From contig CAXAHE010000001.1 in NCBI GenBank assembly GCA_963968475.1, positions 1 to 59,899 of the forward strand: a DNA stretch of 59,899 bases. Reading direction: 5' to 3'. The first letter of the stretch is position 1; every line of letters starts with the position of its first letter. The DNA is from an uncultured Candidatus Poseidoniales archaeon. GTDB taxonomy: Archaea > Thermoplasmatota > Poseidoniia > Poseidoniales > Poseidoniaceae. A program made the position numbers and the translations under genes. This document shows, in pieces, positions 1-31,151 of the stretch. The notes below the pieces were generated by a model that did not search any database, was not told where the DNA came from, and saw nothing but the letters and a program-made list of their open reading frames with translations.

Positions 1-135
1 CGCCCTTCTTTGGTCCTGGTGGTCCTCCACCTTTCTTTGGTCCTGGTGGTCCTCCGCCCTTCTTTGGTCCTGGTGGTCCTCCACCTTTCTTTGGTCCTGG
101 TGGTCCTCCACCTTTCTTTGGTCCTGGTGGTCCTC
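1..135. repeat. 27-bp perfect tandem repeat, 5 complete units, truncated by the window edge
   Basis: Units lie at 1-27, 28-54, 55-81, 82-108 and 109-135. Two variants occur, in the order A-B-A-B-B: A = cgcccttctttggtcctggtggtcctc, B = cacctttctttggtcctggtggtcctc. A degenerate copy extends to about 162. The units are contiguous with no spacers and lie inside the CDS above, giving a 9-aa period. Confidence 0.95.
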
Positions 136-1395: not shown

Positions 1396-2451
1396 ATGCG
1401 GAAGATTAGGTTGGGTCAAACCGGAGAGGAGATGGTGGCAGTTCTAATCAATGATAAATTAGACAAACTTCTCGAAACCACCTCGCGTTCATTTTATCCA
1501 ACACTCAAATATCTTCCAAAAAAGGTACGTGGTCAGATAGGTTTGCTCTATCTTTTGGCCCGACTCGCTGACACAATTGCTGATTCGAAGCACGGAGAGG
1601 CCGAAATTTTACTCGAACTTCTTGGAAAATACAACAATGTAACTCAGGGACGTGAAGCTACTTTGCCTGATTTCTCAGACCTTGCAGAGATTCAAACAAA
1701 TCCACATGAGGCTGAACTTCTTCTAAATGCCAAAGATGTAATTGAAGGATTACAAGAGTATGAAGAAGGAGATAGAGAGCGTATTCTCGAATGCTTGGAA
1801 GTAATCATAGGTGGTCAAATTCTCGATCTTCAACGCTTTGGAACAGCAATGGAAGGAGGGGGCATTTTATCCCTCACCTCTGATGAGGAATTAGATGACT
1901 ATGCCCACAGAGTCGCAGGTTGCGTTGGTACTTTTTGGAGCAAAATGTCTCTTGCCCATCTGATGACGTTGCCTCCTGAGAAAGAGAAAATATTTCTTGA
2001 GAAAGGAATTCGTTTCGGCAAGGCACTTCAAATGATCAATATCCTCAGAGATATTCCCGAGGATTTACGTTTTGGAAGATGTTACATTCCGAGTGAAGCC
2101 CTCTCAAAGCATGGATTGGTTCCAGAAGATCTCTTGGATGATTCGAATCTTGACGCATTCCGTCCACTCTATGATGCATATTTGGATTTAACAAATGACC
2201 ATCTTGAAGCTGCTACTGATTACATTCGAATGCTTCCTGATAAACAATTCCGTCTCAAAGCATCCTGTATGTTACCTGTGCTCATCGGCCAACGTACAGT
2301 GACGCTCCTAAGGACTGGCAATATTCTCGATTCAGATGAACGGATTAAGGTTACAAGAGATGAGATGAAATCTTATGCAAGAAAATTATTACGCGCCCTT
2401 GTTATTCCAGGTGGAGTGCGTCGTTTGCTTGAAAAGAATAAAGATAGGTAA
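1396..2451 (+). CDS. Squalene/phytoene synthase family protein (SQS-like paralog)
   Basis: 351-aa ORF. It carries SRSFYPTLKYLP..LLYLLARLADTIADS (DxxxD region) and INILRDIPEDLRFGRCYIP. These are signature blocks of head-to-head isoprenyl diphosphate synthases. Confidence 0.8.
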   Translation: MRKIRLGQTGEEMVAVLINDKLDKLLETTSRSFYPTLKYLPKKVRGQIGLLYLLARLADTIADSKHGEAEILLELLGKYNNVTQGREATLPDFSDLAEIQTNPHEAELLLNAKDVIEGLQEYEEGDRERILECLEVIIGGQILDLQRFGTAMEGGGILSLTSDEELDDYAHRVAGCVGTFWSKMSLAHLMTLPPEKEKIFLEKGIRFGKALQMINILRDIPEDLRFGRCYIPSEALSKHGLVPEDLLDDSNLDAFRPLYDAYLDLTNDHLEAATDYIRMLPDKQFRLKASCMLPVLIGQRTVTLLRTGNILDSDERIKVTRDEMKSYARKLLRALVIPGGVRRLLEKNKDR

Positions 2452-2571
2452 ATGATATATCGCCGTATACTCTTTGTAAGTAAATTATTACATCCTATGT
2501 TAAAATTCACCTTATCCGAACCTTGGAGAGGAGGCCTCTTAAGGAAGCAGCGCGAGCAATAACTGGTTAGG

Positions 2572-3867
2572 ATGCTGGAACGTCGAAAACCCTTGGACCT
2601 TCTCTTCCCGTTGAAGGGAGGTGCAGAGAGTTCTGTTTCAGCCAAGAAAAACCCAACTCCACTTGACCGCCTCAGAGCAGGTGTCATGTTAGCAAGAGAT
2701 GCAGTTAAGGCTGTTAGTATGACTGCTATGGAAGCTCTCCGTGAGGGAGCACTCATGATTGGAATTATAGGGGAAGAGAATGAACTTGTCGATCCTTTTG
2801 CAGATTTAGATGCACCTATATGGTCGGATAAACCTCCTGCTGAACTCCATCGTCTTGCTTACAAATATTGTGAGGAATTAACGAAGAGGGAAGCTGGTAA
2901 CTTCTATCATTCCTTCAAGTATCTTCCAGATGATCAACGCCAAGCAATGTGTGCAGTCTATGCCTTTTGTCGTCGTGCAGACGATATCGCCGATGGTGAT
3001 TGGGCTGATCGTTTCCCTGGTGCAGAAGGCGAGTTAAGTCAAGAAGCAATAGAATACCGGGAACAACTTGAGTCTTTGCAACAAAGAACAACTATCCTTG
3101 ATAATGAAGTATATCTTAACAAAATCAATCAACTCTTTTTCTTCAGAAAGAAACTCTCTACATGCTATTCAGGCGTTTACAGTACAGACCCTGTTTTCCT
3201 TGCACTCAAAGATACTGTAGAGCGCTACACAATCCCCCGTAGCGTCTTTGATGACCTTATCTCTGGTATGGAAGATGACCTGTATAGTAATCGCTATAGA
3301 ACATTCGATGAACTCTATGTATACTGTTACAGAGTTGCCTCAGTCGTTGGCCTAATGTGTATAGAAATTTACGGATATGATGATCCTCGTGCCAGAAAGT
3401 TTGCTGAATCATGGGGCATATTCATGCAATTAACAAACGTACTACGTGATGTTGGCGAAGACATCGAGCGAGATCGTGTTTACCTTCCTCTTGACGAACT
3501 TGAACACAACGGTATCGGCGAAGAAGACCTCCAAGGAGGGAAAGTTGTTCTCAATTCTTCATGGGAGCCCTACTGTCATCATTATGCTAAGCGGGCTCGA
3601 ACCTATTTGGAAGAAGCACGTCAATTACTACCTCTGCTCCCTCGAAGAACTCGTTATTCACCTGCGGCCATGATTGCATTCTATGATAAAATTTTGAAGC
3701 AAATAGAGAAGCAGCAAGGAGATGTTTTTACCCGTAGAGTCGGTCTTTCCAAGGTACAGAAACTTTCTCTGGCTGCTGCAGTTTATCTTCGACACAGATT
3801 CTTGCCAAGGTTCCTTGACCCAGTATGGTCGGGTTTCGCAAGAATTGGATTGCTTCCAAATGTGTGA
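2572..3867 (+). CDS. Squalene/phytoene synthase family protein (CrtB/HpnD-like paralog)
   Basis: 431-aa ORF with AGNFYHSFKYLPDDQRQAMCAVYAFCRRADDIADG and LTNVLRDVGEDIERDRVYLPLDEL. About 90 aa precede the conserved core, and in-frame ATGs exist downstream, so the start is uncertain. Confidence 0.8.
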   Translation: MLERRKPLDLLFPLKGGAESSVSAKKNPTPLDRLRAGVMLARDAVKAVSMTAMEALREGALMIGIIGEENELVDPFADLDAPIWSDKPPAELHRLAYKYCEELTKREAGNFYHSFKYLPDDQRQAMCAVYAFCRRADDIADGDWADRFPGAEGELSQEAIEYREQLESLQQRTTILDNEVYLNKINQLFFFRKKLSTCYSGVYSTDPVFLALKDTVERYTIPRSVFDDLISGMEDDLYSNRYRTFDELYVYCYRVASVVGLMCIEIYGYDDPRARKFAESWGIFMQLTNVLRDVGEDIERDRVYLPLDELEHNGIGEEDLQGGKVVLNSSWEPYCHHYAKRARTYLEEARQLLPLLPRRTRYSPAAMIAFYDKILKQIEKQQGDVFTRRVGLSKVQKLSLAAAVYLRHRFLPRFLDPVWSGFARIGLLPNV

Positions 3868-18817: not shown

Positions 18818-19018
18818 ATGGAGATTACATTCTCAGGGCGAGACCACAATTGTACGATTGAAGTTGAACCAAACAGCACACTCCGCCAAGCCCTAGTGCT
18901 TGCAAAGATACTCCCTTCAACAGTGATTGTAAGTTATGAGGAAAAGATCCTGCCTCACAGTACTGTCCTCAATTCCGATGTAAATTTACTCGTCACAACA
19001 GTATCGTCTGGCGGCTAA
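18818..19018 (+). CDS. ThiS/MoaD/SAMP-type ubiquitin-like small protein ending in Gly-Gly
   Basis: 66 aa. MEITFSG..TIEVEPNSTLRQAL.. ends ..VTTVSSGG-stop, the pattern of a beta-grasp sulfur carrier or small archaeal modifier. Confidence 0.7.
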   Translation: MEITFSGRDHNCTIEVEPNSTLRQALVLAKILPSTVIVSYEEKILPHSTVLNSDVNLLVTTVSSGG

Positions 19019-20850
19019 TCCTCTGCTACGATATGAAGTCTTGATGCTCGATAGATCTCTCCAGTGGTTAATGCTGCCCAGCCGTTCATACCAACGTTGG
19101 TGATGATCACAGTATCACCGAGTTCAAGCATATCGTATTGAGGTCCCCAATCGGCTTGCCACCCTTCGATCTTAATCGCTCCAGTATTGTCGAGAATCAT
19201 CAATCCCTTACGGCACCATTCCCCACGGGCTGATACGCCTCTTTTTTCTGTTCTATAGACAACTGTCCCCATGATATTCCAACGTGCACGTGGCTTTAGG
19301 AGACTCATAGAAACCTCCTCATCAGAGTCTATTTTGACAATCTTTGAAAATGGATCTACTTTCAGAATGATTGAACCTTTGTAATTGAGTTGGAAGAATG
19401 CTTTCTCAACCCGCACTAAATCTCCTTTCTCCAAACCCTCTGGAACGGTAGGGGTGCCATCTGAATGGGTCATTGCTTTGACTTGAACATCCGCAAAAGC
19501 ATTGTTGGCTTGAGTGATTGTGATTCTTGGTGCGCGCCCAGATTGTGAGTGAATGAGTGTATGTACATGGCCGATGATATCATGTCGATCCTCGAGTTCA
19601 TCAATCGGGTCTCCTTTAATTTCAGCATAAGAACCAGGCAACTGATATGTTCCTCCATGAGGGTGTTCATCGTGTCCAGTTCCATTTGGACAGATCATAG
19701 ACCAATCACATCGTTCACAACGAGTTTGTTTGTTGGGTTTGTCAGAAGGAACACCTCCTGGTTCGAATGAACGCATTGGGGCTGGCTTAGGAGGGCATTG
19801 TTCGATATCAGGAGTTACTTCTCTGAGTTGACTCCAGAGTTCTTTTAGTTCAACACCCATTTCATCCATTTCTTCAATCGTTGGTTTTTCGATCATCTTC
19901 TGACTATTCGCTGCGAGATACCAAATTTCGAGTCCGTCAACTTCTTGTTGCTTTTCGTGAGTATGCCACCATAAAAAGGCATACATGCGTAACTGTTTGA
20001 CATAATCTCCAGATCGGTCATTATTTCCTAAAGAAGCTTTGATGTCGATAATTCGCACCATTCCATCCCAAGAATAAACAAGATCATATTCACCTTGAAA
20101 CCAGTGTTCTGGATGAACTACGTTCATCATGAATGGCTTTGCATCTGGATCAACAAACCAGGGACGAGAGATTTCCCATGCTTCAATCCATGTGACATCC
20201 CCATCCTGTGATAATGGATGCTGGTCAAGTTCGAATCCGCGACCATCCGGTGCTGGCCATTGAGGTCGAGCCCCATTTCGCCATTCCTGAAGTATCGTAT
20301 TTGATACAGTTGCAATGCATTTTTCAACCTCTTCAATATGCATTATGATGCCATTTGTTGCCATCATATGGCATCGTTCGATATCAACATCTTCCCATTG
20401 ACCTGCCTTCCTATCGTGCTTCGACCATTCGGTTTTCATACTTTCCAACGACGAATTTAGATGAGTTTTAACTCTCTCAGTGGCCCATATGAGTAGTTCA
20501 TTTTTGTTTTCCGGCCAGTATTTTTCAGGAAGGGGAAGGAGTTGTTCAGCGGGCCAAGATGAATCATGATTGCGATTTGGGCGCCCTTCATCATCCAGCG
20601 GTGTTGGAGCATAAACATCTGAAGGTGCGGAGGCCATGACTAAGCAAGGAGATTCTTTCAGTGTTTGACAAATAGCTTCTTCGACAGCCCTACCAACGAA
20701 TAAAATTGGGATTTGGGGCATGACTAAACGACGTACTTTCTCATAGAACCACAAACGAGGGCACGCTTTCCAAGCATTCACTTGGCTTGCTGATAGTCTG
20801 TTGTAATTCCCTATGGAATCTGTTTCAGAGTTAGGTAAACAAACAGGCAT
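19015..20850 (-). CDS. Fe-S PD-(D/E)XK nuclease (Cas4/AddB/Exo5-type) with two C-terminal OB-fold-like modules (paralog B)
   Basis: The start is set at the ATG at 20850 (MPVCLPN..), because it aligns with the MPV.. N-terminus of paralog A and removes a 59-nt overlap. Motifs: SASQVNAWKACPRLWFYEKV, GRAVEEAI, GEYDLVYSWDGMVRIIDIKAS, QLRMYAFLWW, CERCDWSMIC (CX2CX5C). The C-terminal half has two OB-like units (IIGHVHTL..GDLVRVEKA..; IMGTVVYR..ILDNTGAIKIEGW..LGDTVIITNV). Confidence 0.7.
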   Translation of the reverse strand: MPVCLPNSETDSIGNYNRLSASQVNAWKACPRLWFYEKVRRLVMPQIPILFVGRAVEEAICQTLKESPCLVMASAPSDVYAPTPLDDEGRPNRNHDSSWPAEQLLPLPEKYWPENKNELLIWATERVKTHLNSSLESMKTEWSKHDRKAGQWEDVDIERCHMMATNGIIMHIEEVEKCIATVSNTILQEWRNGARPQWPAPDGRGFELDQHPLSQDGDVTWIEAWEISRPWFVDPDAKPFMMNVVHPEHWFQGEYDLVYSWDGMVRIIDIKASLGNNDRSGDYVKQLRMYAFLWWHTHEKQQEVDGLEIWYLAANSQKMIEKPTIEEMDEMGVELKELWSQLREVTPDIEQCPPKPAPMRSFEPGGVPSDKPNKQTRCERCDWSMICPNGTGHDEHPHGGTYQLPGSYAEIKGDPIDELEDRHDIIGHVHTLIHSQSGRAPRITITQANNAFADVQVKAMTHSDGTPTVPEGLEKGDLVRVEKAFFQLNYKGSIILKVDPFSKIVKIDSDEEVSMSLLKPRARWNIMGTVVYRTEKRGVSARGEWCRKGLMILDNTGAIKIEGWQADWGPQYDMLELGDTVIITNVGMNGWAALTTGEIYRASRLHIVAED

Positions 20851-20872
20851 ACGAAGTGGTAAAATCCACCCC

Positions 20873-22642
20873 TCAAATACTCTTGGTCGTAAACGCTGGA
20901 GTTTGGTGCTCGATTCTTGTTTTACGAACATCTATTCTGAGTTGGATTAAACCGGCTCTCCAACCAAGTTCTGCACCAATAAGTCGAATCCGATTCCCAG
21001 GGCGCATCGATCGAAGGCGCTCACTTATTGCAGAACCAAAGGCTACGACTTCGACAATGTGCTCACCATCCCATAGATGGAAGCTGAGCATAGACCATGG
21101 TTTAGCATCGAGACGAACTCCATTTTGCTGTCGTATCGCCACGACAACACCTTCCACATTCGCTCGAGTCCGAAGCAGGCCAATTCGGGTTCCCTTAGGT
21201 TCATCCTCGTTACGTACTCGAATATTGGAATGCTGATCTACATACAGCCTTGGTTGATCTCTCCATACACCCGGCAGTGCATTTTCGATGATGACATCAT
21301 TCTGTTCAGAATCATGAAGATGGGGGAATGCTCCTGGCTCGGCTTCCTCAATGGCAATCGTTGCCTCTCCTGCTCGGAGCATTGCTCCAAGTACAGGTTC
21401 ATTGAAGTGGTTTGGTAAAGGTCCCCATTGAGCGATTAAATTCCCTGAAACGTTGACGCGAGATGGGATTTCACCCAGAGGAACGCATGGAGATGAAATT
21501 GAATTCCCTTCGATCATTCTTGCTCTTAGTTCCTCATCCATTGGTCCAGCGGACTCCATATTCGAATGTGTCAATGAACACCAGCCACAACCAGCAGATT
21601 CTCCATCACATGCATGAGTCGTATCTGGTTCTTCAGATTCTTCAATTGCTGGTAAAATCGATGCTCCCTCTCCCATCGTTCTCATGATGTTGTTGATCGA
21701 TAAAAACTCCTCGTCCATAGAAGTAAGTTCTTCTTTACTAGGGGCTTCATAGAGTATTCTTTCTCTTGATGAAAGATACCAGCCTTCCATATTTTGAACA
21801 TGTTTTTGTTCATGAGTTCGCTCCCAGAGCCAAGCATAAAATCTAAGTTGATGTTGAAGGCTTTCCGAGAAACGTCCTCCTGAGTGACCGGATTTGATGT
21901 CAACGAGGCGAATATTCCCATCCCATCTTAGAACAAGGTCGAGTTCTCCAGCAGCCCATCCTTCTGGGTGAAACATTCTCTGAGGTTGATGGACTCTAGG
22001 ATCTTTGAACCATGGTCTGGCAACTTCCCATGCTTCATTCCATTGAATTGGGCTCTCTGCCTTCATCCACTCAAACGGATGCTCCGAATTCCAGTCTCGA
22101 GCATGCAATGATCGTACTTTCTCTGGAACTGGGAAATGCGGCTGAGCACCAATTTTTGGAGTTGGAATCTCATAGGGTTCAACTCCAGTCCTGAATTGTT
22201 CGATATATGGGCCTCCATTTGCATCATAACATCGTTGAATTTCTTCAAGGAAGAGTTCCAATCCATTGTAGAGTTTATTCTGGAAGTCCTTGACATCAAC
22301 GGTCGACCAATCCGAATCAGCACGTTTCCATAGGGAGTTTTCCCAGGTTTCCAGTCCGACATCCCACGCATTTTGGGCTTCTTGATCAGCCAATTCATAT
22401 GCCCAGTCTCTTAACTCGTCAATTGATTCCATCGGTCCTGGTCGATTCATCATGACGTTACAGAGAGCATCTTCAATGACAATTCCTAGAACTTGGCCAA
22501 TCGATTTGGGTGATGAAATACCAACCTTTCGAGTTAGATACCATTGTCGAGTACATCGTAAGTACGTTGTAAGTCCCGATGCGGAGAGTCGTGAACGACT
22601 TCTCCCCAGTGGTCCGCCTTTTGGAGGTGTACCGACTGGCAT
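20873..22642 (-). CDS. Fe-S PD-(D/E)XK nuclease (Cas4/AddB/Exo5-type) with two C-terminal OB-fold-like modules (paralog A)
   Basis: 589 aa. Motifs: SASGLTTYLRCTRQWYLTRKV, GIVIEDAL, GELDLVLRWDGNIRLVDIKSG, QLRFYAWLW, CDGESAGCGWC. The C-terminal OB-like units are VNVSGNLIAQW.. and ANVEGVVVAIR..FHLWDGEHIVEVVAFG..MRPGNRIRLIGAEL. Confidence 0.7.
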   Translation of the reverse strand: MPVGTPPKGGPLGRSRSRLSASGLTTYLRCTRQWYLTRKVGISSPKSIGQVLGIVIEDALCNVMMNRPGPMESIDELRDWAYELADQEAQNAWDVGLETWENSLWKRADSDWSTVDVKDFQNKLYNGLELFLEEIQRCYDANGGPYIEQFRTGVEPYEIPTPKIGAQPHFPVPEKVRSLHARDWNSEHPFEWMKAESPIQWNEAWEVARPWFKDPRVHQPQRMFHPEGWAAGELDLVLRWDGNIRLVDIKSGHSGGRFSESLQHQLRFYAWLWERTHEQKHVQNMEGWYLSSRERILYEAPSKEELTSMDEEFLSINNIMRTMGEGASILPAIEESEEPDTTHACDGESAGCGWCSLTHSNMESAGPMDEELRARMIEGNSISSPCVPLGEIPSRVNVSGNLIAQWGPLPNHFNEPVLGAMLRAGEATIAIEEAEPGAFPHLHDSEQNDVIIENALPGVWRDQPRLYVDQHSNIRVRNEDEPKGTRIGLLRTRANVEGVVVAIRQQNGVRLDAKPWSMLSFHLWDGEHIVEVVAFGSAISERLRSMRPGNRIRLIGAELGWRAGLIQLRIDVRKTRIEHQTPAFTTKSI

Positions 22643-22690: not shown

Positions 22691-24472
22691 CTATCTGACA
22701 TTGAACGAATAATAGTCTCCAATTTCCCTTTGTTCACGATCTTTTCGACTTTCCGATTTATTGATTCGTGGACGTTTAGAATCATGATCTCTGCGGAATG
22801 TCACGTTAACATCGTTCAGGAATCGGTTCATTCCTTCCCGTAAAGAGAATGGTCCCATTGCCTTACCCTTTACGCCACCTTCGCCTTCGAACACCAGTAA
22901 AGAATCGCTAACGATGTCAATAAAGTAAACGTCGTGATCGATAACAAATGCAGATTTTTCATTTGCTTCCATCGTTCTGCGGATTGCCTTAGCGGCCTCC
23001 ATACGAGCATTTGCATCGAGGTGAGCCGATGGTTCGTCAAGAAGATACAAGTCAGCATCTCTTCCAAGACAGAGTGCGATTGCTACAGCTTGCCGTTCAC
23101 CGCCAGAGAGTTTCTTTACACGCTTAGGCAACAGGGAATCAACTCCTAATGCACGTATGACATTGACATTGAATTCACCGCTTCGCCATCGCATCCCTAA
23201 CTCGCTATCGAGCCACGTCTGGACAGTACAATCCATATCAGCATCAATATGTTGAGGCTTGTATGAAATTTTTGCATTCGCAGTAACCCACCCGCTATCG
23301 TACTCATGTTCCCCTGCTAGGATTTTTATCATTGTCGATTTACCAGTCCCATTGGGACCCACTACACCGACAACTTCTGAGCGATGAACAGAACCTTCAC
23401 CAGTTGATAATTCGAAGGAACCTAGTTTCTTTCCAAGGTCGCCCCATTGAACAACAACACTGCCTGTTTCAACAGATCGCTCATGGTGCTTGAGGAAACG
23501 AATTGGTTTGTCTCGAATTCGAACGTTTTCCTCGACTAAGAACCCATCAAGGTATGCATTGATGGCAGTTCGGGTGGAGCGAGCGGGGGTAAATATCCCA
23601 AACGCTCCTTTCTGGCCATAGACGATATGGATGAGATCTGCAAGTACGTCGAGAACCGCTAAATCGTGTTCAATGACAATCACGCGCTTCGTTTCTGATA
23701 ATTTTTGAATAATTCGTACGATCCGCATTCGTTCGTGAATGTCGAGATAAGAAGAAGGTTCATCGAAGAAATAGACATCAACATCTCGTAAAATCGTTGC
23801 GCAAATCGCCATTCGTTGTAATTCTCCTCCGGAGAGTTGCTGAACAGTTCGGTCCAATAGGTGATCAATTCCTAAGGCGACCGTCATCTCATCGAACATA
23901 TTTCGTTCATCGACTCGTCGCAGCAATGCTTCAACAGTTCCTTGAACACGTTTGGGCAATCTGTCAACATTTTGTGGCTTTAGTGCGACTTTGATTGCGC
24001 CATCACGAACAGCCATGAAGAAATCACGAAGTTCACCTTTTGGAAGTGAATGAACAACATCTTCCCACTCTGGCTCTTTGTTTAACCAATCACCAAGGTT
24101 TGGTATCATTCGCCCAGAAAGAGCATTGAATGCTGTGGATTTACCCATGCCGTTTGGACCGAGAATTCCTACGACCGATTCCTTTGTTGGCGTGGGTAGG
24201 CGGAACAGTCTGAAGCCATTAAGACTGTAACGATGAATCATATCAGTTTCCAGTTCACTTGGAAGTTTTTCGATGATCAATGCATCGTGTGGACATTTGT
24301 TAATACAGATTCCACATCCGATACAGAGTGATTCAGAGATGTGTGGTTTCCCCGTTTTGTCATCCATAATGATGCATTCTTGCCCATTTCGAACTGGTGG
24401 ACAATAGTGAAAACATTCGTCATTACATTTCTTTGGTTGACAATTGTCTTCCTTCAAAACTGCGACTCGCAT
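22691..24472 (-). CDS. ABCE1: ABCE1 / RNase L inhibitor-type ribosome recycling ATPase
   Basis: It has an N-terminal double 4Fe-4S ferredoxin domain (CNDECFHYCP.., CIGCGICINKCP). Two ABC cassettes follow (GPNGMGKST and GPNGTGKST Walker A motifs; LSGGELQR and LSGGERQ signatures). 593 aa. Confidence 0.9.
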   Translation of the reverse strand: MRVAVLKEDNCQPKKCNDECFHYCPPVRNGQECIIMDDKTGKPHISESLCIGCGICINKCPHDALIIEKLPSELETDMIHRYSLNGFRLFRLPTPTKESVVGILGPNGMGKSTAFNALSGRMIPNLGDWLNKEPEWEDVVHSLPKGELRDFFMAVRDGAIKVALKPQNVDRLPKRVQGTVEALLRRVDERNMFDEMTVALGIDHLLDRTVQQLSGGELQRMAICATILRDVDVYFFDEPSSYLDIHERMRIVRIIQKLSETKRVIVIEHDLAVLDVLADLIHIVYGQKGAFGIFTPARSTRTAINAYLDGFLVEENVRIRDKPIRFLKHHERSVETGSVVVQWGDLGKKLGSFELSTGEGSVHRSEVVGVVGPNGTGKSTMIKILAGEHEYDSGWVTANAKISYKPQHIDADMDCTVQTWLDSELGMRWRSGEFNVNVIRALGVDSLLPKRVKKLSGGERQAVAIALCLGRDADLYLLDEPSAHLDANARMEAAKAIRRTMEANEKSAFVIDHDVYFIDIVSDSLLVFEGEGGVKGKAMGPFSLREGMNRFLNDVNVTFRRDHDSKRPRINKSESRKDREQREIGDYYSFNVR

Positions 24473-25233: not shown

Positions 25234-26466
25234 ATGGCGAGTGGCTGGAGGAAGTTGCTGGAGGAAGAGTCAGAACATCAATGGCTTGCACTCGGGTTGT
25301 TTTTGGTTTTCGTAGTCATAGGGGGATTCCTCATTGGCGGTACCCGCAATTTAGAGGGTATGGTGCTCGGGGTAGATTCAAATGAAAACCTCGCCTTTGA
25401 TGATGGCCATCATGTCATAGATATTGATTACCATGCAAACTCGGAATGGGATGGTGCACATTCTGCAATTGTGATGAATGGTTCAGGAATGAAAATGTAT
25501 CAACAATTCTCCTCTGCTGATGTAAATGACATTGTTCCCTTTGATGATCAACTCATTCGGGACGTTACCTTTTTTGAATCAGACGAAGAAGGAACGGTGA
25601 CTTACTCAGCAGCTCAAAACACAATTACAACCGTTGTCAATGGTATGTCATCGAATCAAATCCTGGATGATGCAATGGGTTCAACATTCAGTATCCAAGG
25701 AATCGCTAGAGATACGTCGGATACAATCCTCAACAATCGTATTTTGATCACCTCGGAAGATGGTGGTTCAGGCGTTCGTGGACTGGGGATGTCCGGCGTT
25801 ACGGTTTCATCTTCTCCAGACCCGTCAGTCTCCTGGACTGAGTTAGTTTATCTTGAAGATAATACGTACATTGCAACAGGTATTTTCACCTATCACGATA
25901 ACAACCCTGCCCTCCTTGAATCGAAGATTATCTTCGCTCACATCACTTGGGCTGGTGGTTCCGATGCCCCTCAAGTTCTGATATCGCCAGTAATGGGCAA
26001 CGGGAGCGAAGTGCACTCGCTGACCTCCATGAAGGATGGTCTCGCAGCGGCAGCCTCAAACCAAGAGGCATATACTATCTCAAAGGATTCAATTGAGATT
26101 CACAGTATTTCAGCAACAGCAATGGTGTACGAACCAAGCGAAAATCGACTTTGGTTCTTCGGAGAACTTGGGTCGAAATCTATTCTAAGAATGGATGTGG
26201 AAACAGGTGAAGAGACAACAAAGAACTTGCAATATGCTTTACCTCTCCAACCAACATTTGTTCTCATAGAAGGTGATTCTCTATTCATCCATGGGTATGA
26301 TGCAAAGGGAGAGTCCGATCGTCTATCATTGGATTTGACTCTCGAGGGTTCGATGTCTTCTGGTCGTGGCTTCCTTAATTTCCTCTTCCTCTTCGCAGGG
26401 GTTTTGATGCTTGGAACACAATTGTACACAATCATCGATCGTACTTTGCTGCAAAAGAAACGTTAG
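25234..26466 (+). CDS. Membrane-anchored extracellular protein (N- and C-terminal TM helices)
   Basis: 410 aa. AGGAGGTG at 25224-25231 lies just upstream of the ATG. There is an N-terminal TM (WLALGLFLVFVVIGGFLIGG), a large beta-rich ectodomain, and a C-terminal TM plus basic tail (..LQKKR). Confidence 0.6.
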   Translation: MASGWRKLLEEESEHQWLALGLFLVFVVIGGFLIGGTRNLEGMVLGVDSNENLAFDDGHHVIDIDYHANSEWDGAHSAIVMNGSGMKMYQQFSSADVNDIVPFDDQLIRDVTFFESDEEGTVTYSAAQNTITTVVNGMSSNQILDDAMGSTFSIQGIARDTSDTILNNRILITSEDGGSGVRGLGMSGVTVSSSPDPSVSWTELVYLEDNTYIATGIFTYHDNNPALLESKIIFAHITWAGGSDAPQVLISPVMGNGSEVHSLTSMKDGLAAAASNQEAYTISKDSIEIHSISATAMVYEPSENRLWFFGELGSKSILRMDVETGEETTKNLQYALPLQPTFVLIEGDSLFIHGYDAKGESDRLSLDLTLEGSMSSGRGFLNFLFLFAGVLMLGTQLYTIIDRTLLQKKR

Positions 26467-26542: not shown

Positions 26543-29176
26543 ATGACAAAAAGGAGCATGATGGACCAATTCCATGAATTGAAAGAAGAGAATCCAGGAA
26601 CCGTTCTTTTCTTCCGAATGGGAGATTTCTATGAATTGTTTCATGAAGACGCTGAAACCGGTTCTGAAGTCATGGGTCTAGCGCTTACATCAAGGGATAA
26701 GAATGCTGAAAATCCAATTCCTATGGCTGGTTTTCCATGGCACCAACTCGAGGACAATCTGCGGAAAATGTTGCGAGCTGGCCACAAAGTCACAGTTGCG
26801 GAGCAAGAGCAGGAACTCAGGGAGGGTGCAAAACTGCTTGAGCGGGTTGTAACAAGAGTCTACACGCCCGGCTCTCTCTATGAAGAATCCCTCATTGGTA
26901 CGGATTCCTCAGCCCTTCTCTGTGCTCTTTCTGTTGCAGCAGATTCTGTTGCCGTTTCAATGATCGATGCCTCAACAGGGCAAGCTTGGGCGACAACACA
27001 TGAAGGGGATGGTAGATGGGCTTCGATACATGATGAAGTACTACGCTGGAGCCCGAGTGAAATTGTACTTACTTTATCGGATTCTAAGGATAATGAAGTC
27101 CTTCATTTGATTTCATTACTTGATTCGATTATTATCAGTCAACATGCAGCACCGGCCAAACGGTCTCTTGAGAAATTAAAGAAGATGTTATCAGTGAATG
27201 ATCTTGGACATCTTGACTTAGACGATTCACCCTTAGCTCTCCAAGCAACTGCACTTGCAGCAGATTACCTTGCTACAGTTCATAGACACGATGACATCGC
27301 TATCAGTGATGTTGAAATTCAAGAAACCTCGGAGGGTATGGTGCTCGATCAAACAACACTTCGAAATTTGGAGATTACCCAAACACTTGCAGGAGAATTC
27401 GAAGGTTCTCTCCTTTGGTCAATGAATAAATGTAGGACTGCAATGGGGCGACGATGCTTGAAATCATGGCTTTTGCGCCCCCTTTCAAATGTCTCTGCCA
27501 TCGAAGCAAGGCATTCTGCCGTAACTTCACTTATGCGTTCTTCTAAACGCCTTGATTTGTTGAGAGAATGTCTGAAAGGAATGCTCGATATCGAACGTTT
27601 GTCCACACAATTGAACTATCGACGTTCAAACGCTCGAGATCTCCTCGCAACTGCAAATGCAATTGAACGGCTTCCTGCTATCAAACGATTATGTCTTGAG
27701 ACTGAAGATGGGTTACTCATGCATCTCGTCGAGGATTTAGATGCTCTTACCGATGTTGCTGAAAAGATTCATCGAACCTTAGTGGATGAAGTCCCATTGA
27801 GCTTAAGAGATGGTGGATTAATCCGAAAAGGAATTCATGAAGAATTAGACCGCTACAGGTCAGCCTCTGAACTTGGGCATACTTGGTTTAAAGATCTCGA
27901 GACAAAGTATCGGCAAGAGTTGAGTATTCCAAGTCTGAAAGTAAAGAATAATCGTCAAATTGGATGGTTTATTGAAGTGACTGCGACTCATTCATCTAAG
28001 GTACCTGAAGAGTGGAAACGCAAACAGCAGATGACGAACGGAGACCGCTGGGTAACCGATGATTTACTCGAGCAAGACGATTTATTACTCACTGCGGAGA
28101 GTAAATCAAAAGCAATTGAATATCGGCTGTTTTGTGAATTAAGAGATGATATTCGAGGTCATGCAAACCATCTTGCACAGATTGCTTCGCGTGTCGCAGC
28201 TATCGATGTGCTGCAATGTTTTTCAGCGACTGCACGCCAACGCTCATGGGTAAAACCTTCCATTGTTTCGGGTAAAAAAATGCACCTTGAACAAGCCCGA
28301 CATCCCGTTCTTGAAGCACAGCAAGGGTTTGTTCCGAATGATGCTATGATGGATGAAAAGAGAAGGTTCCTATTGATTACCGGTCCAAATATGGGTGGTA
28401 AATCGACCTATCTAAGGACGGTTGCACTCGTATCAATTCTTGCCCAAGCAGGAAGTCTTGTACCCGCTGAGAAAGCCAAAATCGGACTTGTTGATCGTAT
28501 CTTTACCCGAGTTGGTGCAAGTGATGATTTGAGAAGAGGCCGTTCAACATTCATGATGGAAATGATTGAAGTTGCTCATATCCTTCGCCGAGCTACACCC
28601 CAATCCCTGTTATTACTGGATGAAATCGGAAGAGGAACATCAACCTTTGATGGCCTCTCCCTTGCTTGGGCAGTCACTGAAGATGTTTGTAATCGAATTG
28701 GAGCTCGCAGTCTCTTCGCCACTCATTACCACCAACTTGTTGGATTAGAATCCGAAATTAATGGCTTAGCGAATGTTCATGTCCAGGTGGCACAAAAAGA
28801 CGGGACCCTCCATTTCCTCCATACAGTGGCCGATGGCCCATGCGATGAATCATATGGGATTCAAGTTGCAGCCCTTGCAGGTTTACCACGTCCCGTGGTT
28901 GAACGGGCCTCTGATCTTCTTGCTTTCCTTGAACAGCAAGCCCAAGGAGCAAAGGCTGGTAGAGACGGAGCACCCCAAACAAGGGAGGCAGGCCAGTCCT
29001 CTTTGATGGGGTATTTTGCAGCAGCTGCAATGCAGACCACAGAATCTGTGCCTACTGGCCCTTCGCAACAAGAACAATCAGTGCTAGACAAATTAATCGA
29101 TGTCAATCTTGATGATTTATCTCCACGAGAAGCTTACACGTTGTTAGAAGATCTTCAAACACGGTTGGAGAGATGA
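26543..29176 (+). CDS. mutS: DNA mismatch repair protein MutS (bacterial MutS1 type)
   Basis: It has an N-terminal mismatch-binding block, LFFRMGDFYELFHEDA. The Walker A motif is ITGPNMGGKST. Also STFMMEM and DEIGRGTSTFDG. 877 aa. Confidence 0.9.
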   Translation: MTKRSMMDQFHELKEENPGTVLFFRMGDFYELFHEDAETGSEVMGLALTSRDKNAENPIPMAGFPWHQLEDNLRKMLRAGHKVTVAEQEQELREGAKLLERVVTRVYTPGSLYEESLIGTDSSALLCALSVAADSVAVSMIDASTGQAWATTHEGDGRWASIHDEVLRWSPSEIVLTLSDSKDNEVLHLISLLDSIIISQHAAPAKRSLEKLKKMLSVNDLGHLDLDDSPLALQATALAADYLATVHRHDDIAISDVEIQETSEGMVLDQTTLRNLEITQTLAGEFEGSLLWSMNKCRTAMGRRCLKSWLLRPLSNVSAIEARHSAVTSLMRSSKRLDLLRECLKGMLDIERLSTQLNYRRSNARDLLATANAIERLPAIKRLCLETEDGLLMHLVEDLDALTDVAEKIHRTLVDEVPLSLRDGGLIRKGIHEELDRYRSASELGHTWFKDLETKYRQELSIPSLKVKNNRQIGWFIEVTATHSSKVPEEWKRKQQMTNGDRWVTDDLLEQDDLLLTAESKSKAIEYRLFCELRDDIRGHANHLAQIASRVAAIDVLQCFSATARQRSWVKPSIVSGKKMHLEQARHPVLEAQQGFVPNDAMMDEKRRFLLITGPNMGGKSTYLRTVALVSILAQAGSLVPAEKAKIGLVDRIFTRVGASDDLRRGRSTFMMEMIEVAHILRRATPQSLLLLDEIGRGTSTFDGLSLAWAVTEDVCNRIGARSLFATHYHQLVGLESEINGLANVHVQVAQKDGTLHFLHTVADGPCDESYGIQVAALAGLPRPVVERASDLLAFLEQQAQGAKAGRDGAPQTREAGQSSLMGYFAAAAMQTTESVPTGPSQQEQSVLDKLIDVNLDDLSPREAYTLLEDLQTRLER

Positions 29177-29180
29177 TTAA

Positions 29181-31151
29181 ATGAGTGAACCAAACAGAAT
29201 TCAGCAACTCGATGAGAAAACGATTGGTCATATTTCTGCAGGAGAAGTCGTTGAACGTCCTGCTCAAGTTGTCAAAGAACTTCTTGAGAATTCACTTGAT
29301 GCAGGCTCCACTTCGATTCATGTCGTTATTGAAAGAGGTGGGTTTGATAAGATACAAATCGAAGACAATGGAAGCGGAATTCACCAAGAAGATCTTGCTC
29401 TTTCTCTTGATCGGCATGCAACCTCGAAGATGAAATCTCCAGAAGACCTCAATGAGATTTACACGCTTGGCTTTCGAGGAGAGGCTCTCGCAAGTATCGG
29501 AATGGTGTCAAAACTGACTGTCGCCTCTCGGCCAGATGGCCAAGAAGGGCGTAGTATCCACATGGAAGATGGCAATAAAGGAGAGATTGAACCATCTGGG
29601 ATGGCAAAAGGTACCGTAGTTACAGTCGAACATCTCTTCGAAAATACTCCCGTCCGATTAGGTTTTCAACGTCGACCTGCAACAGAACATGCAAGAATCG
29701 TAGAGGTTGTTGTCGCTCATGCAATTGCCCATCCAAATGTTGGGTTCAGATGTACTATTGATGGCCGTTCTACTCTTCATTTACCAAAAGTCGAAACAAT
29801 TGAAGACCGTTTGTATGATGTTTTAGGGGGTCAGTCATCAGCCCTTCTCCCTCTTCAACAACCTGATGACGATGCGAGCGTTCCTGGTGATGAAACATGG
29901 TCAGGTTACATCAGCACTCCAGATATTTCAAGGGGCAAGGGGGATGAGATTCACATTCTTGTTAACGGTAGACCAGTTGCCTCAACACCTTTCCACCAAG
30001 CAATACGAAGAGGCTATCGTACCCGTTTAATGCAAGGCAGGCATCCTGTAACAGTTCTTCACCTCGAAGTTCCTGCTAATGAGGTGGATGTAAACGTCCA
30101 TCCTACGAAAAGAGAAGTACGACTGCGTCATTCATGGCGTGTCCTCGAGCGACTTGAACGAGCCATCGCGCATACTCTTGCTTCATCCCCAACACAACCT
30201 GATCCAAGTGGTGAACTCCAAGGGCTCCAAGGTCTTTCCCAACAGTCTATAGAAAAGCCAATACAGGAACTGCTTGCTCCCATAGTCAAAGATGAAAACC
30301 CTCAGGAGATACCTGCTCCACCAGCATGGGCGCTCGCTGCGGGTACCCAACTGAATCTTGTTGGGAAGGTTGCTGAAGAATCAATTGACAGTGATGAGAA
30401 GTTACGGCCACAATCCACAGCAGCATCTGCTCAAAAAGTGTTACCGGGAATGGGTTCATCTCCAATGGCTCCAGCTCTTTCCAAAGAAGAACGAGCATTA
30501 CACCGGCATGCAGGTCTTGGAGGAAGCATTCTTCCAAGCCAGGAATCACCATTGAAATTTTCTGGGAATGATTTACCAAAGATGGAACCCTTATCGCAAT
30601 TTGCTAATTCGTACATTCTTGCCCAAGCGGGAGAAGAACTTCTCCTGATTGACCAGCACGCTTTACACGAGCGTATTCGATACGAACGGCTTCGACATGA
30701 TCCGACAATTTGGGAACCACAACCTCGATTGGTTCCTACAACTATCCATTTCAATTTGACTCAAAAAGCACGATTAGAGGCTTCTATGGACAAATTGAAT
30801 GACCTGGGATTTACTCTCGAACAACAATCCGATGAAGAATGGCACGTCCTTCAAGCACCTCGCCTTCTCGATGGCGATGAAATTCAGCCGTTCTTATTCG
30901 ACCTCCTACAAGATGTGAGCGAGGATGGAGCTCCTCTGGAAACGATTGAACGAAGAAAAGACCATCTGGCATTCTTGAATGCGTGCAGAGGTTCCGTGAA
31001 AGCAAATGACGAATTGAGTATTGCTGAAATGCGTCGTCTGCTCGACGATATGCGTCATGTTCCAAATCCATGGGCTTGTGTCCATGGCCGCCCAACTGCG
31101 CTTCGTTTATCTCTGGACTCCCTTGACAAGCACTTCGGTAGGCATGGTTGA
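29181..31151 (+). CDS. mutL: DNA mismatch repair protein MutL (with endonuclease motif)
   Basis: It has a GHKL N-terminus (VVKELLENSLDAG, IEDNGSGI, LGFRGEAL). The C-terminal LIDQHALHERIRYERL (DQHAxxExxxxE-type) and ACVHGRPT blocks are present. Confidence 0.9.
   Translation: MSEPNRIQQLDEKTIGHISAGEVVERPAQVVKELLENSLDAGSTSIHVVIERGGFDKIQIEDNGSGIHQEDLALSLDRHATSKMKSPEDLNEIYTLGFRGEALASIGMVSKLTVASRPDGQEGRSIHMEDGNKGEIEPSGMAKGTVVTVEHLFENTPVRLGFQRRPATEHARIVEVVVAHAIAHPNVGFRCTIDGRSTLHLPKVETIEDRLYDVLGGQSSALLPLQQPDDDASVPGDETWSGYISTPDISRGKGDEIHILVNGRPVASTPFHQAIRRGYRTRLMQGRHPVTVLHLEVPANEVDVNVHPTKREVRLRHSWRVLERLERAIAHTLASSPTQPDPSGELQGLQGLSQQSIEKPIQELLAPIVKDENPQEIPAPPAWALAAGTQLNLVGKVAEESIDSDEKLRPQSTAASAQKVLPGMGSSPMAPALSKEERALHRHAGLGGSILPSQESPLKFSGNDLPKMEPLSQFANSYILAQAGEELLLIDQHALHERIRYERLRHDPTIWEPQPRLVPTTIHFNLTQKARLEASMDKLNDLGFTLEQQSDEEWHVLQAPRLLDGDEIQPFLFDLLQDVSEDGAPLETIERRKDHLAFLNACRGSVKANDELSIAEMRRLLDDMRHVPNPWACVHGRPTALRLSLDSLDKHFGRHG

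What the first reader, a model, noticed from the sequence alone, without database searches (positions are those of the whole stretch)
19015..22642. Tandem paralogous Fe-S PD-(D/E)XK nucleases, each fused to two OB-fold-like modules: candidate two-subunit nuclease of unrecognised architecture
Two co-directional genes are separated by 22 nt, using the ATG at 20850. The longer track start would overlap the upstream gene by 59 nt.

Their N-termini align: MPVGTPPKGGPLGRSRSRLSASGLTTYLRCTRQWYLTRKV versus MPVCLPNSETDSIGNYNRLSASQVNAWKACPRLWFYEKV.

Both keep the following elements:
- motif I: GIVIEDAL / GRAVEEAI;
- a shared W-x-EAWE-x-x-RPWF-x-DP block;
- motifs II-III: GELDLVLRWDGNIRLVDIKSG / GEYDLVYSWDGMVRIIDIKAS;
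- QxxxY: QLRFY / QLRMY;
- one N-terminal and three C-terminal cysteines: CDGESAGCGWC / CERCDWSMIC.

This is the 4Fe-4S pattern of the Cas4/AddB/Dna2/Exo5 clade. Both therefore look catalytically competent.

Each then has about 200 aa of beta-rich sequence. It carries twice the G-x-V...D-x-G-x-I...G-D/N-x-V-x-I signature seen in the RPA OB folds of this same window. A heterodimer would have four OB folds and two nuclease sites.

There is no helicase, ATPase, cas gene or CRISPR array nearby. The genes follow uL16 and ABCE1 on the same strand with 48-nt and 86-nt gaps, and converge on the ThiS/SAMP gene with a 4-nt overlap. The substrate could be ssDNA (end resection or flap processing) or RNA. 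I do not recognise this domain combination as a characterised family.
Basis: partly seen in the sequence, partly recalled or inferred. Interest (0 to 1): 0.75.

Follow-up and report, generated by a model that had tools for sequence, protein, structure and literature searches.

The report
Paired Fe-S nucleases with built-in OB folds
Two neighbouring sister genes of a marine group II archaeon each encode a Cas4/AddB-type iron-sulfur nuclease fused to a pair of RPA-like single-strand-binding modules; this uncharacterised design, kept throughout this abundant ocean lineage, most likely cuts single-stranded DNA during repair.

Summary
Gene A (20873-22642, minus strand, 589 aa) and gene B (19015-20850, minus strand, 611 aa) are real paralogues (BLASTP E 2e-35).

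- **Nuclease part.** Both pass the Pfam PDDEXK_1 threshold. Both keep every catalytic motif and four cysteines, and these are invariant in their homologues.
- **OB part.** AlphaFold models (pLDDT 83 and 90) show that each C-terminal ~200 aa is a tandem OB module. The best structural match is RPA70 DBD-A/B (Foldseek E 1e-7 to 1e-8).
- **Distribution.** The family is tiny: 498 hits among 1.84 billion representative proteins. The archaeal members carry Poseidoniales or Thermoplasmatota labels. A shorter, single-gene form with probably one OB fold occurs in bacteria, one labelled Planctomycetes.
- **Pairing.** A sits directly before B in every GTDB locus with enough flank (78 of the 80 kept), with a median gap of 37 nt. 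The pair also survives in distant lineages (~31% identity) where ABCE1 or MutS-MutL are no longer neighbours. One B-like clade is encoded singly.
- **Absent.** Neither protein has a helicase or ATPase domain, the window holds no CRISPR-like repeat array, and no ORF scanned against Pfam gave a Cas family.

I found no published description. The best reading is a core, probably co-transcribed pair of single-stranded-DNA nucleases. Whether they form a heterodimer, what they cut and in which pathway are all untested. I rate it a new variant of a known kind, of moderate interest.

The parts
20873..22642 (-). Gene A, 589 aa: Fe-S PD-(D/E)XK nuclease plus tandem OB folds
   Evidence: ORF. Pfam PDDEXK_1 E 8.9e-16, 59 bits against a cut-off of 22. 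AlphaFold2 model pLDDT 82.7, pTM 0.83.
21563..22642 (-). A nuclease domain (about aa 1-360), including a helical insertion (about aa 74-151) between motif I and motif II
   Evidence: Pfam match and secondary structure.
21893..21949 (-). A motifs II-III, GELDLVLRWDGNIRLVDIK (aa 232-250; D235, D248, K250)
   Evidence: Invariant in 18 homologues; regex check.
21578..21610 (-). A C-terminal cysteine triad, CDGESAGCGWC (C345, C352, C355). The fourth ligand, C30, is at 22553-22555.
   Evidence: All four cysteines are invariant. The spacing is C-x6-C-x2-C here, but canonical C-x2-C-x5-C in the distant A-like P0269.
21209..21469 (-). A OB fold 1 (about aa 392-478)
   Evidence: Beta strands 396-476 in the model. 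Foldseek matches tandem-OB proteins: RPA70 A/B, HIN-200, POT1, Teb1.
20903..21175 (-). A OB fold 2 (about aa 490-580)
   Evidence: Strands 493-579. Pfam tRNA_anti-codon at aa 496-556, E 0.02. The merged A+B family profile (A3) matches P. abyssi RPA, E 0.002.
20851..20872 (-). 22-nt A-B spacer (GGGGTGGATTTTACCACTTCGT)
   Evidence: Sequence. A-B gaps in related loci are mostly 16-61 nt, median 37, which fits co-transcription.
19015..20850 (-). Gene B, 611 aa from the ATG at 20850: Fe-S PD-(D/E)XK nuclease plus tandem OB folds
   Evidence: ORF. PDDEXK_1 E 2.7e-15 over the full profile 1-247. AlphaFold2 model pLDDT 90.5, pTM 0.85.
19681..20850 (-). B nuclease domain (about aa 1-390). It has a conserved B-specific insert (about aa 66-115) and a helical insertion.
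   Evidence: Foldseek against viral models aligns 350-410 columns to RecB-family / PD-(D/E)XK exonucleases, target TM up to 0.61.
20038..20094 (-). B motifs II-III, GEYDLVYSWDGMVRIIDIK (aa 253-271; D256, D269, K271)
   Evidence: Invariant; regex check.
19690..19719 (-). B cysteine triad, CERCDWSMIC (C378, C381, C387; canonical C-x2-C-x5-C). The fourth ligand, C30, is at 20761-20763.
   Evidence: Invariant; regex check.
19327..19659 (-). B OB fold 1 (about aa 398-508)
   Evidence: Strands 400-506. NCBIfam SSB/RPA models hit aa 471-515, E 3e-4 to 3e-3. Foldseek RPA70 A/B E 1.4e-8.
19018..19293 (-). B OB fold 2 (about aa 520-611)
   Evidence: Strands 523-609; Foldseek; profile match to P. abyssi RPA.
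22691..24472 (-). Context only: ABCE1, co-directional and 48 nt upstream of A, probably in the same transcription unit
   Evidence: Pfam. ABCE1-A gaps are 8-99 nt in 69 loci. The adjacency is lost in L092.

Best explanation
Genes A and B are an anciently duplicated, vertically inherited gene pair of Poseidoniales (marine group II) and related archaea labelled Thermoplasmatota.

**Architecture (shown).** Each protein has two parts:
- an N-terminal Cas4/AddB-type (Pfam PDDEXK_1) metal-dependent nuclease. It has a complete active site (E, D, D-x-K, Q-x3-Y) and a four-cysteine iron-sulfur site.
- a C-terminal tandem OB-fold module shaped like the RPA70 DBD-A/B single-strand-binding core.

**Proposed mechanism (inferred).**
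- The OB pair captures single-stranded DNA and presents it to the nuclease site on the same polypeptide. The enzyme would therefore need no helicase domain of its own and could work on ssDNA tails, flaps or gaps made by other enzymes.
- The two genes are co-transcribed and the products act together, probably as a heterodimer with two active sites. These could differ in polarity or in strand preference.

**Proposed role (inferred).** Housekeeping DNA repair or recombination: end resection, flap or gap processing, or excision after mismatch recognition.
For: - **Nuclease identity.** PDDEXK_1 scores 59 and 57 bits against a cut-off of 22. The domain aligns structurally to viral RecB-family exonucleases. 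Catalytic residues and four cysteines are invariant in both families. They are also kept in distant archaeal and bacterial relatives.
- **Tandem OB.** Both models are confident. The top Foldseek matches are RPA70 DBD-A/B bound to ssDNA (4gop_C, 1jmc), Teb1 AB, POT1 and HIN-200, at E 1e-8 to 1e-5. Baculovirus LEF-3 and phage SSBs also match. The family profile hits P. abyssi RPA at E 0.002.
- **Core gene, not mobile.** All 80 best GTDB loci are Poseidoniales-type and share one synteny block, and A precedes B in the 78 with enough flank. A and B identities fall in step with those of the neighbouring genes.
- **The pair is the conserved unit.** It is kept at ~31% identity in a 70% GC genome (L005) and in loci without MutS-MutL or uL16 alongside. 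It is also kept where ABCE1 has moved away (L092). Both an A-like and a B-like lineage exist among the representative clusters.
- **Tight spacing.** A-B gaps have a median of 37 nt.
- **DNA rather than RNA.** From established knowledge, the characterised Fe-S PD-(D/E)XK nucleases I know of (AddB, Cas4, Dna2, Exo5) act on DNA.
Against: - There is no direct evidence for a complex. A multimer prediction was not possible with these tools.
- Bacterial relatives are single genes with what looks like one OB fold. One archaeal B-like clade (P0420) is encoded alone in a different context. So the fold can presumably work without a paralogous partner.
- Gene neighbourhood gives no consistent repair signal. 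The most persistent neighbours are translation and proteasome-assembly genes.
- OB folds of this type also bind RNA.
- Substrate, polarity and the presence of the Fe-S cluster are all untested.
Confidence: 0.55

Rival explanations
1. A and B are two independent nucleases that stay adjacent only through inherited gene order. Each works alone, as a monomer or homo-oligomer, on a different substrate.
For: - Single-gene relatives exist in bacteria and in one archaeal clade.
- Both paralogues keep full active sites, so neither is reduced to a structural partner.
- Gene order in Poseidoniales is conserved over long stretches in general.
Against: - The pair stays adjacent and co-directional with short gaps while flanking genes are rearranged.
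- The duplication is old (24% identity) yet both copies are retained in every lineage checked but one.
Confidence: 0.25
2. The pair is the excision nuclease of the bacterial-type MutS-MutL mismatch repair system of these archaea.
For: - In Poseidoniaceae-type loci, MutL-MutS and an unknown 410-aa gene lie divergently about 4 kb from A. This holds in every locus with enough flank.
- Mismatch repair needs ssDNA exonucleases. The Fe-S nuclease Dna2 has been linked to EXO1-independent mismatch repair in eukaryotes (PMC9036127 abstract).
Against: - MutS-MutL are not adjacent in the loci L090 and L091, in L005 or in L092, while the pair persists there.
- The two gene groups are never co-directional and are always separated by uL16 and ABCE1.
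Confidence: 0.12
3. The proteins act on RNA, for example in ribosome-linked mRNA or rRNA surveillance together with ABCE1.
For: - ABCE1 lies 8-99 nt upstream on the same strand in 69 loci.
- This arrangement also holds in a lineage with only ~31% identity.
- The surrounding genes are translation-related.
- tRNA_anti-codon-type OB folds can bind RNA.
Against: - ABCE1 adjacency is lost in L092 while the pair stays. It is also absent for P0420 and for the bacterial forms.
- I know of no characterised Fe-S PD-(D/E)XK nuclease that is an RNase (own knowledge).
- The best structural matches are ssDNA binders.
Confidence: 0.08
4. It is an anti-virus defence module related to solo-Cas4 or to the Druantia nuclease DruK.
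For: Weak domain-level PADLOC hits: DruK at 25 bits, Cas4 at 21 bits, and an Argonaute-associated Cas4-like nuclease.
Against: - It sits at a fixed housekeeping locus in the 78 GTDB loci with enough flank and tracks the divergence of its neighbours.
- No partner defence genes were seen, no CRISPR-like repeat array was found, and no ORF scanned against Pfam gave a Cas family.
- The Cas4 model scores 18 bits against a cut-off of 65.
Confidence: 0.04

Closest known systems
Cas4-like nucleases of Pfam PF12705 (PDDEXK_1; AddB-type nuclease domain, COG2887 RecB-family exonucleases)
   Same: Same nuclease fold and motifs (E, D, D-x-K, Q-x3-Y). Same arrangement of one N-terminal and three C-terminal cysteines. 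Scores are above the Pfam threshold. Viral RecB-family exonucleases match structurally.
   Different: - Known members are about 200-300 aa alone, or are fused to SF1/SF2 helicases (PMC5704561).
- Here a 140-180-aa helical insertion and two C-terminal OB folds are added.
- There is no helicase, and the gene is duplicated in tandem.
AddAB / AdnAB two-subunit helicase-nucleases
   Same: Paralogous subunits encoded side by side, each with a RecB-type nuclease site. AddB carries the same Fe-S cysteine pattern. This is a model for two nuclease sites dividing the work.
   Different: Those enzymes are driven by ATP-dependent helicase domains. A and B have no Walker A motif and no helicase domain. An OB module takes the place of the motor.
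RPA70 DBD-A/B and archaeal RPA / SSB
   Same: The C-terminal modules have the tandem OB architecture. The best Foldseek hits are 4gop_C and 1jmc, and there is a weak profile match to P. abyssi RPA.
   Different: - They are not RPA family members by sequence: NCBIfam scores of 10-21 bits against cut-offs of 176-767.
- They have no significant similarity to the window's own RPA.
- They are covalently joined to a nuclease.
Eukaryotic Dna2 and Exo5 (Fe-S ssDNA nucleases)
   Same: Fe-S PD-(D/E)XK nucleases specialised for ssDNA ends. Dna2 also contains an OB fold and works on RPA-coated flaps (own knowledge).
   Different: Neither a Dna2 nor an Exo5 family appears among the Pfam matches at E up to 1. 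Dna2 has an SF1B helicase, and its OB fold is N-terminal and single.
Two-component viral recombinases: exonuclease plus single-strand-binding protein (baculovirus alkaline nuclease with LEF-3; herpesvirus UL12 with ICP8)
   Same: A PD-(D/E)XK exonuclease works together with an OB-type ssDNA-binding protein. LEF-3 models are among the best viral structural matches to the OB part. The partnership itself is from my own knowledge.
   Different: In those systems the two functions are separate proteins. Here they are fused and duplicated, and the nuclease carries an Fe-S site.

Membership tests
Pfam PDDEXK_1 (PF12705) | Score above the curated gathering threshold | tested here: met
   A scores 59 bits and B 57.4 bits against a cut-off of 22. 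B covers profile positions 1-247 of 247.
Fe-S PD-(D/E)XK nucleases (Cas4/AddB/Dna2/Exo5 type) | Catalytic E, D, (D/E)xK and QxxxY motifs | tested here: met
   Invariant in both families and in distant relatives.
Fe-S PD-(D/E)XK nucleases (Cas4/AddB/Dna2/Exo5 type) | One N-terminal and three C-terminal cysteines that bind an iron-sulfur cluster | tested here: inconclusive
   The four cysteines are invariant. Whether a cluster is bound, and whether it is 4Fe-4S or 2Fe-2S, cannot be read from sequence.
Cas4 (TIGR00372, CRISPR-associated) | Score above the NCBIfam cut-off | tested here: not met
   18.6 and 17.5 bits against a cut-off of 65.
Cas4 (TIGR00372, CRISPR-associated) | Adjacent to cas1/cas2 or a CRISPR array | tested here: not met
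   No Cas family among the Pfam results for the roughly 40 ORFs scanned; not every ORF of the window was scanned. The only tandem repeat is a 27-nt unit at 6-138. No cas genes were called in the related loci.
AddAB / AdnAB / RecBCD helicase-nucleases | SF1 helicase/ATPase domain in the nuclease subunit | tested here: not met
   No helicase Pfam family and no Walker A motif.
Dna2 | Dna2-type nuclease joined to an SF1B helicase | tested here: not met
   No such Pfam family at E up to 1 and no Walker A motif.
Exo5 | Match to the Exo5 Pfam family | tested here: not met
   Not among the Pfam matches at E up to 1.
RPA / archaeal SSB | Score above the NCBIfam equivalog cut-offs | tested here: not met
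   Best score 20.8 bits against 176. Comparison with the window's own RPA gives probability 7.8%.
RPA / archaeal SSB | Tandem OB-fold structure | tested here: met
   Foldseek E 1.9e-7 for A and 1.4e-8 for B to RPA70 (4gop_C), plus other tandem-OB proteins. These rest on predicted models.
Known defence systems (PADLOC: Druantia DruK, Cas4, Argonaute-associated Cas4-like nuclease) | Full-length match plus the partner genes of the system | tested here: not met
   Only 50-140-residue local matches at 17-25 bits. The neighbours are housekeeping genes.
Two-subunit (heterodimeric) nuclease | Physical A-B complex | not testable with these tools
   Only single-chain prediction is offered. The only indirect support is conserved adjacency.

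The most novel reading that the evidence does not exclude
A and B form a helicase-free, two-active-site machine that joins RPA-like ssDNA capture to AddB-like cutting. It would serve as the main ssDNA end- or gap-processing nuclease of marine group II archaea. For example, it could stand in for HerA-NurA in end resection, or supply the missing excision step of archaeal MutS-MutL mismatch repair.
Probability: 0.2. Interest if true: 0.75.

Novelty: new variant of a known kind. Interest (0 to 1): 0.5.

Why it matters
Marine group II archaea are among the most abundant archaea of the surface ocean and have no cultured representative. Their DNA-repair toolkit is known only from annotation.

This pair is present at the same locus in every species-representative contig examined that had enough flank. 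Public records call it only 'PD-(D/E)XK nuclease family protein' or 'hypothetical'.

A nuclease that carries its own RPA-like module, duplicated into two catalytically intact paralogues, is a design not described for the Cas4/AddB group. If the two proteins act together, they would show how ssDNA can be processed without a dedicated helicase subunit.

The pair would also give a concrete candidate for resection or excision steps in these archaea. Both proteins model with high confidence, so they are practical targets for expression and biochemistry.

Tried and rejected
- **PDB sequence searches.** Single-sequence searches with A and B found nothing. Only the family profile gave weak RPA, Cas4 and SSB hits.
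- **Foldseek against the PDB.** The 50 rows shown were all OB-fold proteins, so the nuclease domain's solved relatives could not be ranked. The viral library did show RecB-family nucleases.
- **Defence-system membership.** Rejected.
- **ABCE1 and MutS-MutL as functional partners.** Both adjacencies break in other lineages while the pair persists. I treat them as inherited gene order, not as evidence of function.
- **Literature.** Searches for this architecture, and for repair nucleases of marine group II, found no description. The Cas4 phylogenomics paper and the PD-(D/E)XK census do not list an OB fusion.
- **Heterodimer prediction.** Not possible.
- **Shine-Dalgarno reading of the spacer.** I considered GGGGTGG in the A-B spacer as a ribosome-binding site, but it lies 15 nt from the ATG, so I draw nothing from it.
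- **Left open.** I did not establish whether genomes carrying the singly encoded P0420 type also hold an A-like gene elsewhere.

Full report
**1. The observation**

The region holds two co-directional ORFs on the minus strand.
- Gene A is 20873-22642 (589 aa).
- Gene B is 19015-20931 (638 aa), or 611 aa from the ATG at 20850.

- a 22-nt A-B spacer, or a 59-nt overlap with the longer start;
- 48 nt between ABCE1 and A;
- 86 nt between uL16 and ABCE1;
- a 4-nt overlap with a convergent 66-aa ORF.

The 20850 start is the better one. Homology between A and B, and with 606-615-aa homologues, begins at the shared MPV N-terminus. In other lineages the A-B spacer is 16-118 nt, which leaves no room for the extension. 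Many database entries of 638 aa probably carry a start called too far upstream.

A and B are clear paralogues: BLASTP E 2e-35, 24% identity across about 580 aligned columns.

**2. What the proteins are**

*Nuclease domain.* Both pass the Pfam PDDEXK_1 gathering threshold: 59 and 57 bits against 22, with B covering the whole profile.

In alignments of 18 diverse homologues each, these residues are invariant:
- A family: C30, E57, D235, D248, K250, Q265, Y269, C345, C352, C355.
- B family: C30, E57, D256, D269, K271, Q286, Y290, C378, C381, C387.

B has the canonical C-x2-C-x5-C spacing. The window's A has C-x6-C-x2-C, but a distant A-like protein again has C-x2-C-x5-C. So both copies look catalytically competent and able to bind an iron-sulfur cluster. 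The cluster type cannot be read from sequence. One Cas4 with four such cysteines binds 2Fe-2S (PMC4176176 abstract).

*Structure models.* AlphaFold2 models are confident:
- A: pLDDT 82.7, pTM 0.83.
- B: pLDDT 90.5, pTM 0.85.

Each model shows an alpha/beta nuclease core with a long helical insertion, followed by about 200 residues of beta structure.

*OB module.* Foldseek against the PDB puts tandem-OB proteins on top for both models:
- RPA70 DBD-A/B (4gop_C at E 1.9e-7 for A and 1.4e-8 for B; also 1jmc and 1fgu);
- Teb1 AB, POT1 and HIN-200 domains.

Foldseek against viral models gives two groups. RecB-family / PD-(D/E)XK exonucleases align over 350-410 columns (target TM up to 0.61). Baculovirus LEF-3 and phage SSBs align to the OB part.

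A family profile weakly hits P. abyssi RPA (E 0.002), a Cas4 (E 0.044) and Sulfolobus SSB (E 0.15) in the PDB.

*What is absent.* Neither protein has a helicase domain or a Walker A motif.

One detail fails: the OB modules are not significantly similar in sequence to the RPA encoded in this window at 44598-45983.

**3. Distribution**

The window is from a Poseidoniaceae (marine group II) archaeon. The nearest species-representative contigs carry that label and are 93-94% identical in protein B.

An exhaustive HMM search of 1.84 billion representative proteins found only 498 hits at E up to 0.001. About 30 are full-length clusters and the rest are fragments. The full-length clusters split into an A-like and a B-like lineage, each reaching down to about 31% identity with the window proteins. 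The duplication is therefore old.

Source names are only of these kinds:
- Poseidoniales, Thalassarchaeaceae, Thermoplasmatota or Euryarchaeota archaeon;
- products called 'PD-(D/E)XK nuclease family protein', 'OB-fold nucleic acid binding domain-containing protein' or 'hypothetical'.

A third group of 430-477 aa keeps the nuclease motifs and cysteines. By length and by my reading of the sequence, which I did not model, it has a single C-terminal OB fold. It occurs as a single gene in two bacterial-type loci. One of its members is labelled 'Planctomycetes bacterium', and the context is uninformative: cytochrome bc genes and peptidase M28.

**4. Pairing and neighbourhood**

The scan of GTDB species representatives found 282 relatives. 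The best 80 loci all carry the Poseidoniales synteny block. Three contigs labelled as bacteria carry the same archaeal block and are likely binning errors.

In the 78 of these loci with enough upstream flank (two short contigs begin inside B), A directly precedes B. The usual order in those loci is:
- MutS and an unknown 410-aa gene on one strand;
- uL16, ABCE1, A and B on the other strand;
- then a convergent small ORF and PAC2.

Gaps are short. A-B gaps have a median of 37 nt and are mostly 16-61 nt. ABCE1-A gaps are 8-99 nt. This fits one transcription unit.

The informative cases are the rearranged ones.
- **L090 and L091.** Two phytoene/squalene synthase genes replace uL16 and MutS-MutL upstream of ABCE1-A-B.
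- **L005.** A 3.0-Mb contig with 70% GC in the fetched locus keeps ABCE1-A-B-PAC2 at ~31% identity, without MutS-MutL nearby.
- **L092.** The A-B pair is kept, but ABCE1 lies 6 kb away on the other strand.
- **L094.** P0270 (B-like) is preceded by a 550-aa gene cut by the contig end. I did not check whether that gene is A-like.

So the A-B pair is the conserved unit, and the ABCE1 and MutS-MutL adjacencies look like inherited gene order.

There is one exception. P0420 is a 622-aa B-like protein (36% identity to B) with intact motifs. It is encoded alone, between radical-SAM, pdxT and AIM24 genes, with no A-like gene in the fetched flanks: 8 kb upstream, and 3.9 kb (L088) or 0.8 kb (L089) downstream to the contig ends. 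I could not find out whether those genomes carry an A-like gene elsewhere.

**5. How it most likely works**

*Shown:* the domain make-up, the conservation of both active sites and both cysteine sets, the narrow and vertical distribution, and the conserved tight pairing.

*Inferred:* the OB pair binds single-stranded nucleic acid and feeds it to the nuclease on the same chain. The enzyme would then act on ssDNA tails, flaps or gaps produced by other proteins, without a motor of its own.

I prefer DNA over RNA for two reasons:
- The characterised Fe-S PD-(D/E)XK nucleases I know of (AddB, Cas4, Dna2, Exo5) are DNases (own knowledge).
- The closest OB structures are ssDNA binders.

Joint action of A and B, probably as a heterodimer, is suggested by:
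- retention of both copies side by side through rearrangements;
- analogy with AddAB and AdnAB;
- two paralogous cas4 genes that are both required for type I-A adaptation and were suggested to form a complex (PMC5704561).

It is not demonstrated, and the single-gene relatives show that the fold can presumably work alone.

A loose functional parallel is the viral pairing of a PD-(D/E)XK exonuclease with an SSB, such as alkaline nuclease with LEF-3. The partnership is from my own knowledge; the structural resemblance to LEF-3 is.

My confidence by level is about 0.95 for the architecture and 0.75 for a DNA nuclease. It is 0.5 for an A-B complex and at most 0.3 for any named pathway.

**6. Rivals**

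- **Independent enzymes (0.25).** Single-gene relatives support it. Persistent pairing argues against it.
- **Mismatch-repair excision nuclease (0.12).** The proximity to MutS-MutL holds only in Poseidoniaceae-type loci.
- **RNA-directed role with ABCE1 (0.08).** The adjacency is common, but it is lost in L092 and absent for the single-gene forms.
- **Defence module (0.04).** PADLOC gives only short local matches. The Cas4 model scores far below its cut-off. The window has no CRISPR-like repeat array. The scanned ORFs gave no Cas family. The locus behaves as a core gene.

**7. Comparison with known families and novelty**

The proteins are members of Pfam PDDEXK_1, the 'Cas4-like proteins of pfam12705'. 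Described members of that family are stand-alone, phage-borne, or fused to UvrD-like or COG1205 helicases (PMC5704561).

They are not Cas4 proper, AddAB/AdnAB, Dna2, Exo5 or RPA by the defining features tested.

I found no paper describing a PDDEXK_1 nuclease fused to tandem OB folds, or a tandem pair of such genes.

I therefore class it as a new variant of a known kind. It is an uncharacterised, lineage-specific architecture built from familiar parts.

Nuclease-OB fusions are a common theme (RecJ, ExoVII, YhaM; own knowledge), and no unusual mechanism is yet implied. Against that, it is a conserved, well-modelled and easily testable candidate in an abundant, uncultured archaeal lineage.

Noticed in passing
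window 25234-26466 (+): A 410-aa ORF lies directly upstream of MutS on the same strand. It has no Pfam, NCBIfam, PADLOC or PDB-sequence match. It is kept at this position, at 25-35% identity in the more distant loci, in the Poseidoniaceae-type loci with enough flank. It could be an unrecognised partner of MutS-MutL.
   Followed up: partly
window 26543-31151 (+): Complete bacterial-type MutS (877 aa, domains I-V) and MutL (656 aa) genes in an archaeon. They lie divergently from the uL16-ABCE1-A-B cluster. The adjacency is missing in L090, L091, L005 and L092.
   Followed up: partly
window 18818-19018 (+): A 66-aa ORF ending in ...VSSGG is convergent with gene B and overlaps it by 4 nt. tblastn finds it next to B in nearly all related loci with downstream flank. 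It has no HMM match, so the ThiS/SAMP (ubiquitin-like) label is only a guess from its size and the GG tail.
   Followed up: partly
window 19015-20931 (-), and database entries P0121-P0137: Many public gene calls for protein B are 636-638 aa. They use an upstream ATG that overlaps gene A. The conserved N-terminus starts 27 codons later (MPV...), so these calls are probably too long.
   Followed up: yes
L006 10001-11320; L007 10001-11392: Bacterial relatives of 430-477 aa (P0430 is labelled 'Planctomycetes bacterium') keep the nuclease motifs and the C-x2-C-x5-C triad. By length and sequence they appear to have only one C-terminal OB fold; I did not model them. They are single genes next to cytochrome bc and peptidase M28 genes. 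The direction of any transfer between domains is unknown.
   Followed up: partly
L088 8001-9869; L089 8001-9869: P0420 is a 622-aa B-like homologue with intact motifs. It is encoded alone in a different context (radical SAM, pdxT, AIM24; locus GC 54%). It is the only archaeal exception to the A-B pairing that I saw.
   Followed up: partly
L017, L051, L078: Contigs filed under Salipiger bermudensis, Rhodobiaceae and Verrucomicrobiales MAGs carry the full Poseidoniales block (uL16-ABCE1-A-B-PAC2) at 50-67% identity in protein B. This is most likely binning contamination.
   Followed up: no
window 44598-45983 (-) and 43675-44610 (-): An RPA/SSB-type protein of 462 aa (NCBIfam PRK07218, E 5e-65, below its cut-off). 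A 311-aa ORF with no family match overlaps its 3' end by 16 nt. This may be an RPA plus an associated protein.
   Followed up: no
window 49914-52505 (-): A Hel308-type DNA helicase of 863 aa with DEAD, archaeal helicase domain 4 and HhH domains. It is the nearest helicase to the nuclease pair, about 27 kb away.
   Followed up: no
window 6-138: A tandem repeat of 27 nt, 4.9 copies, 96% matches, at the very edge of the window. A unit that is a multiple of three suggests a repetitive coding segment.
   Followed up: no
window 1396-3867 (+): Two adjacent squalene/phytoene synthase paralogues. In L090 and L091 the same pair sits directly upstream of ABCE1-A-B. This marks a rearrangement between those lineages and the window's lineage.
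   Followed up: no
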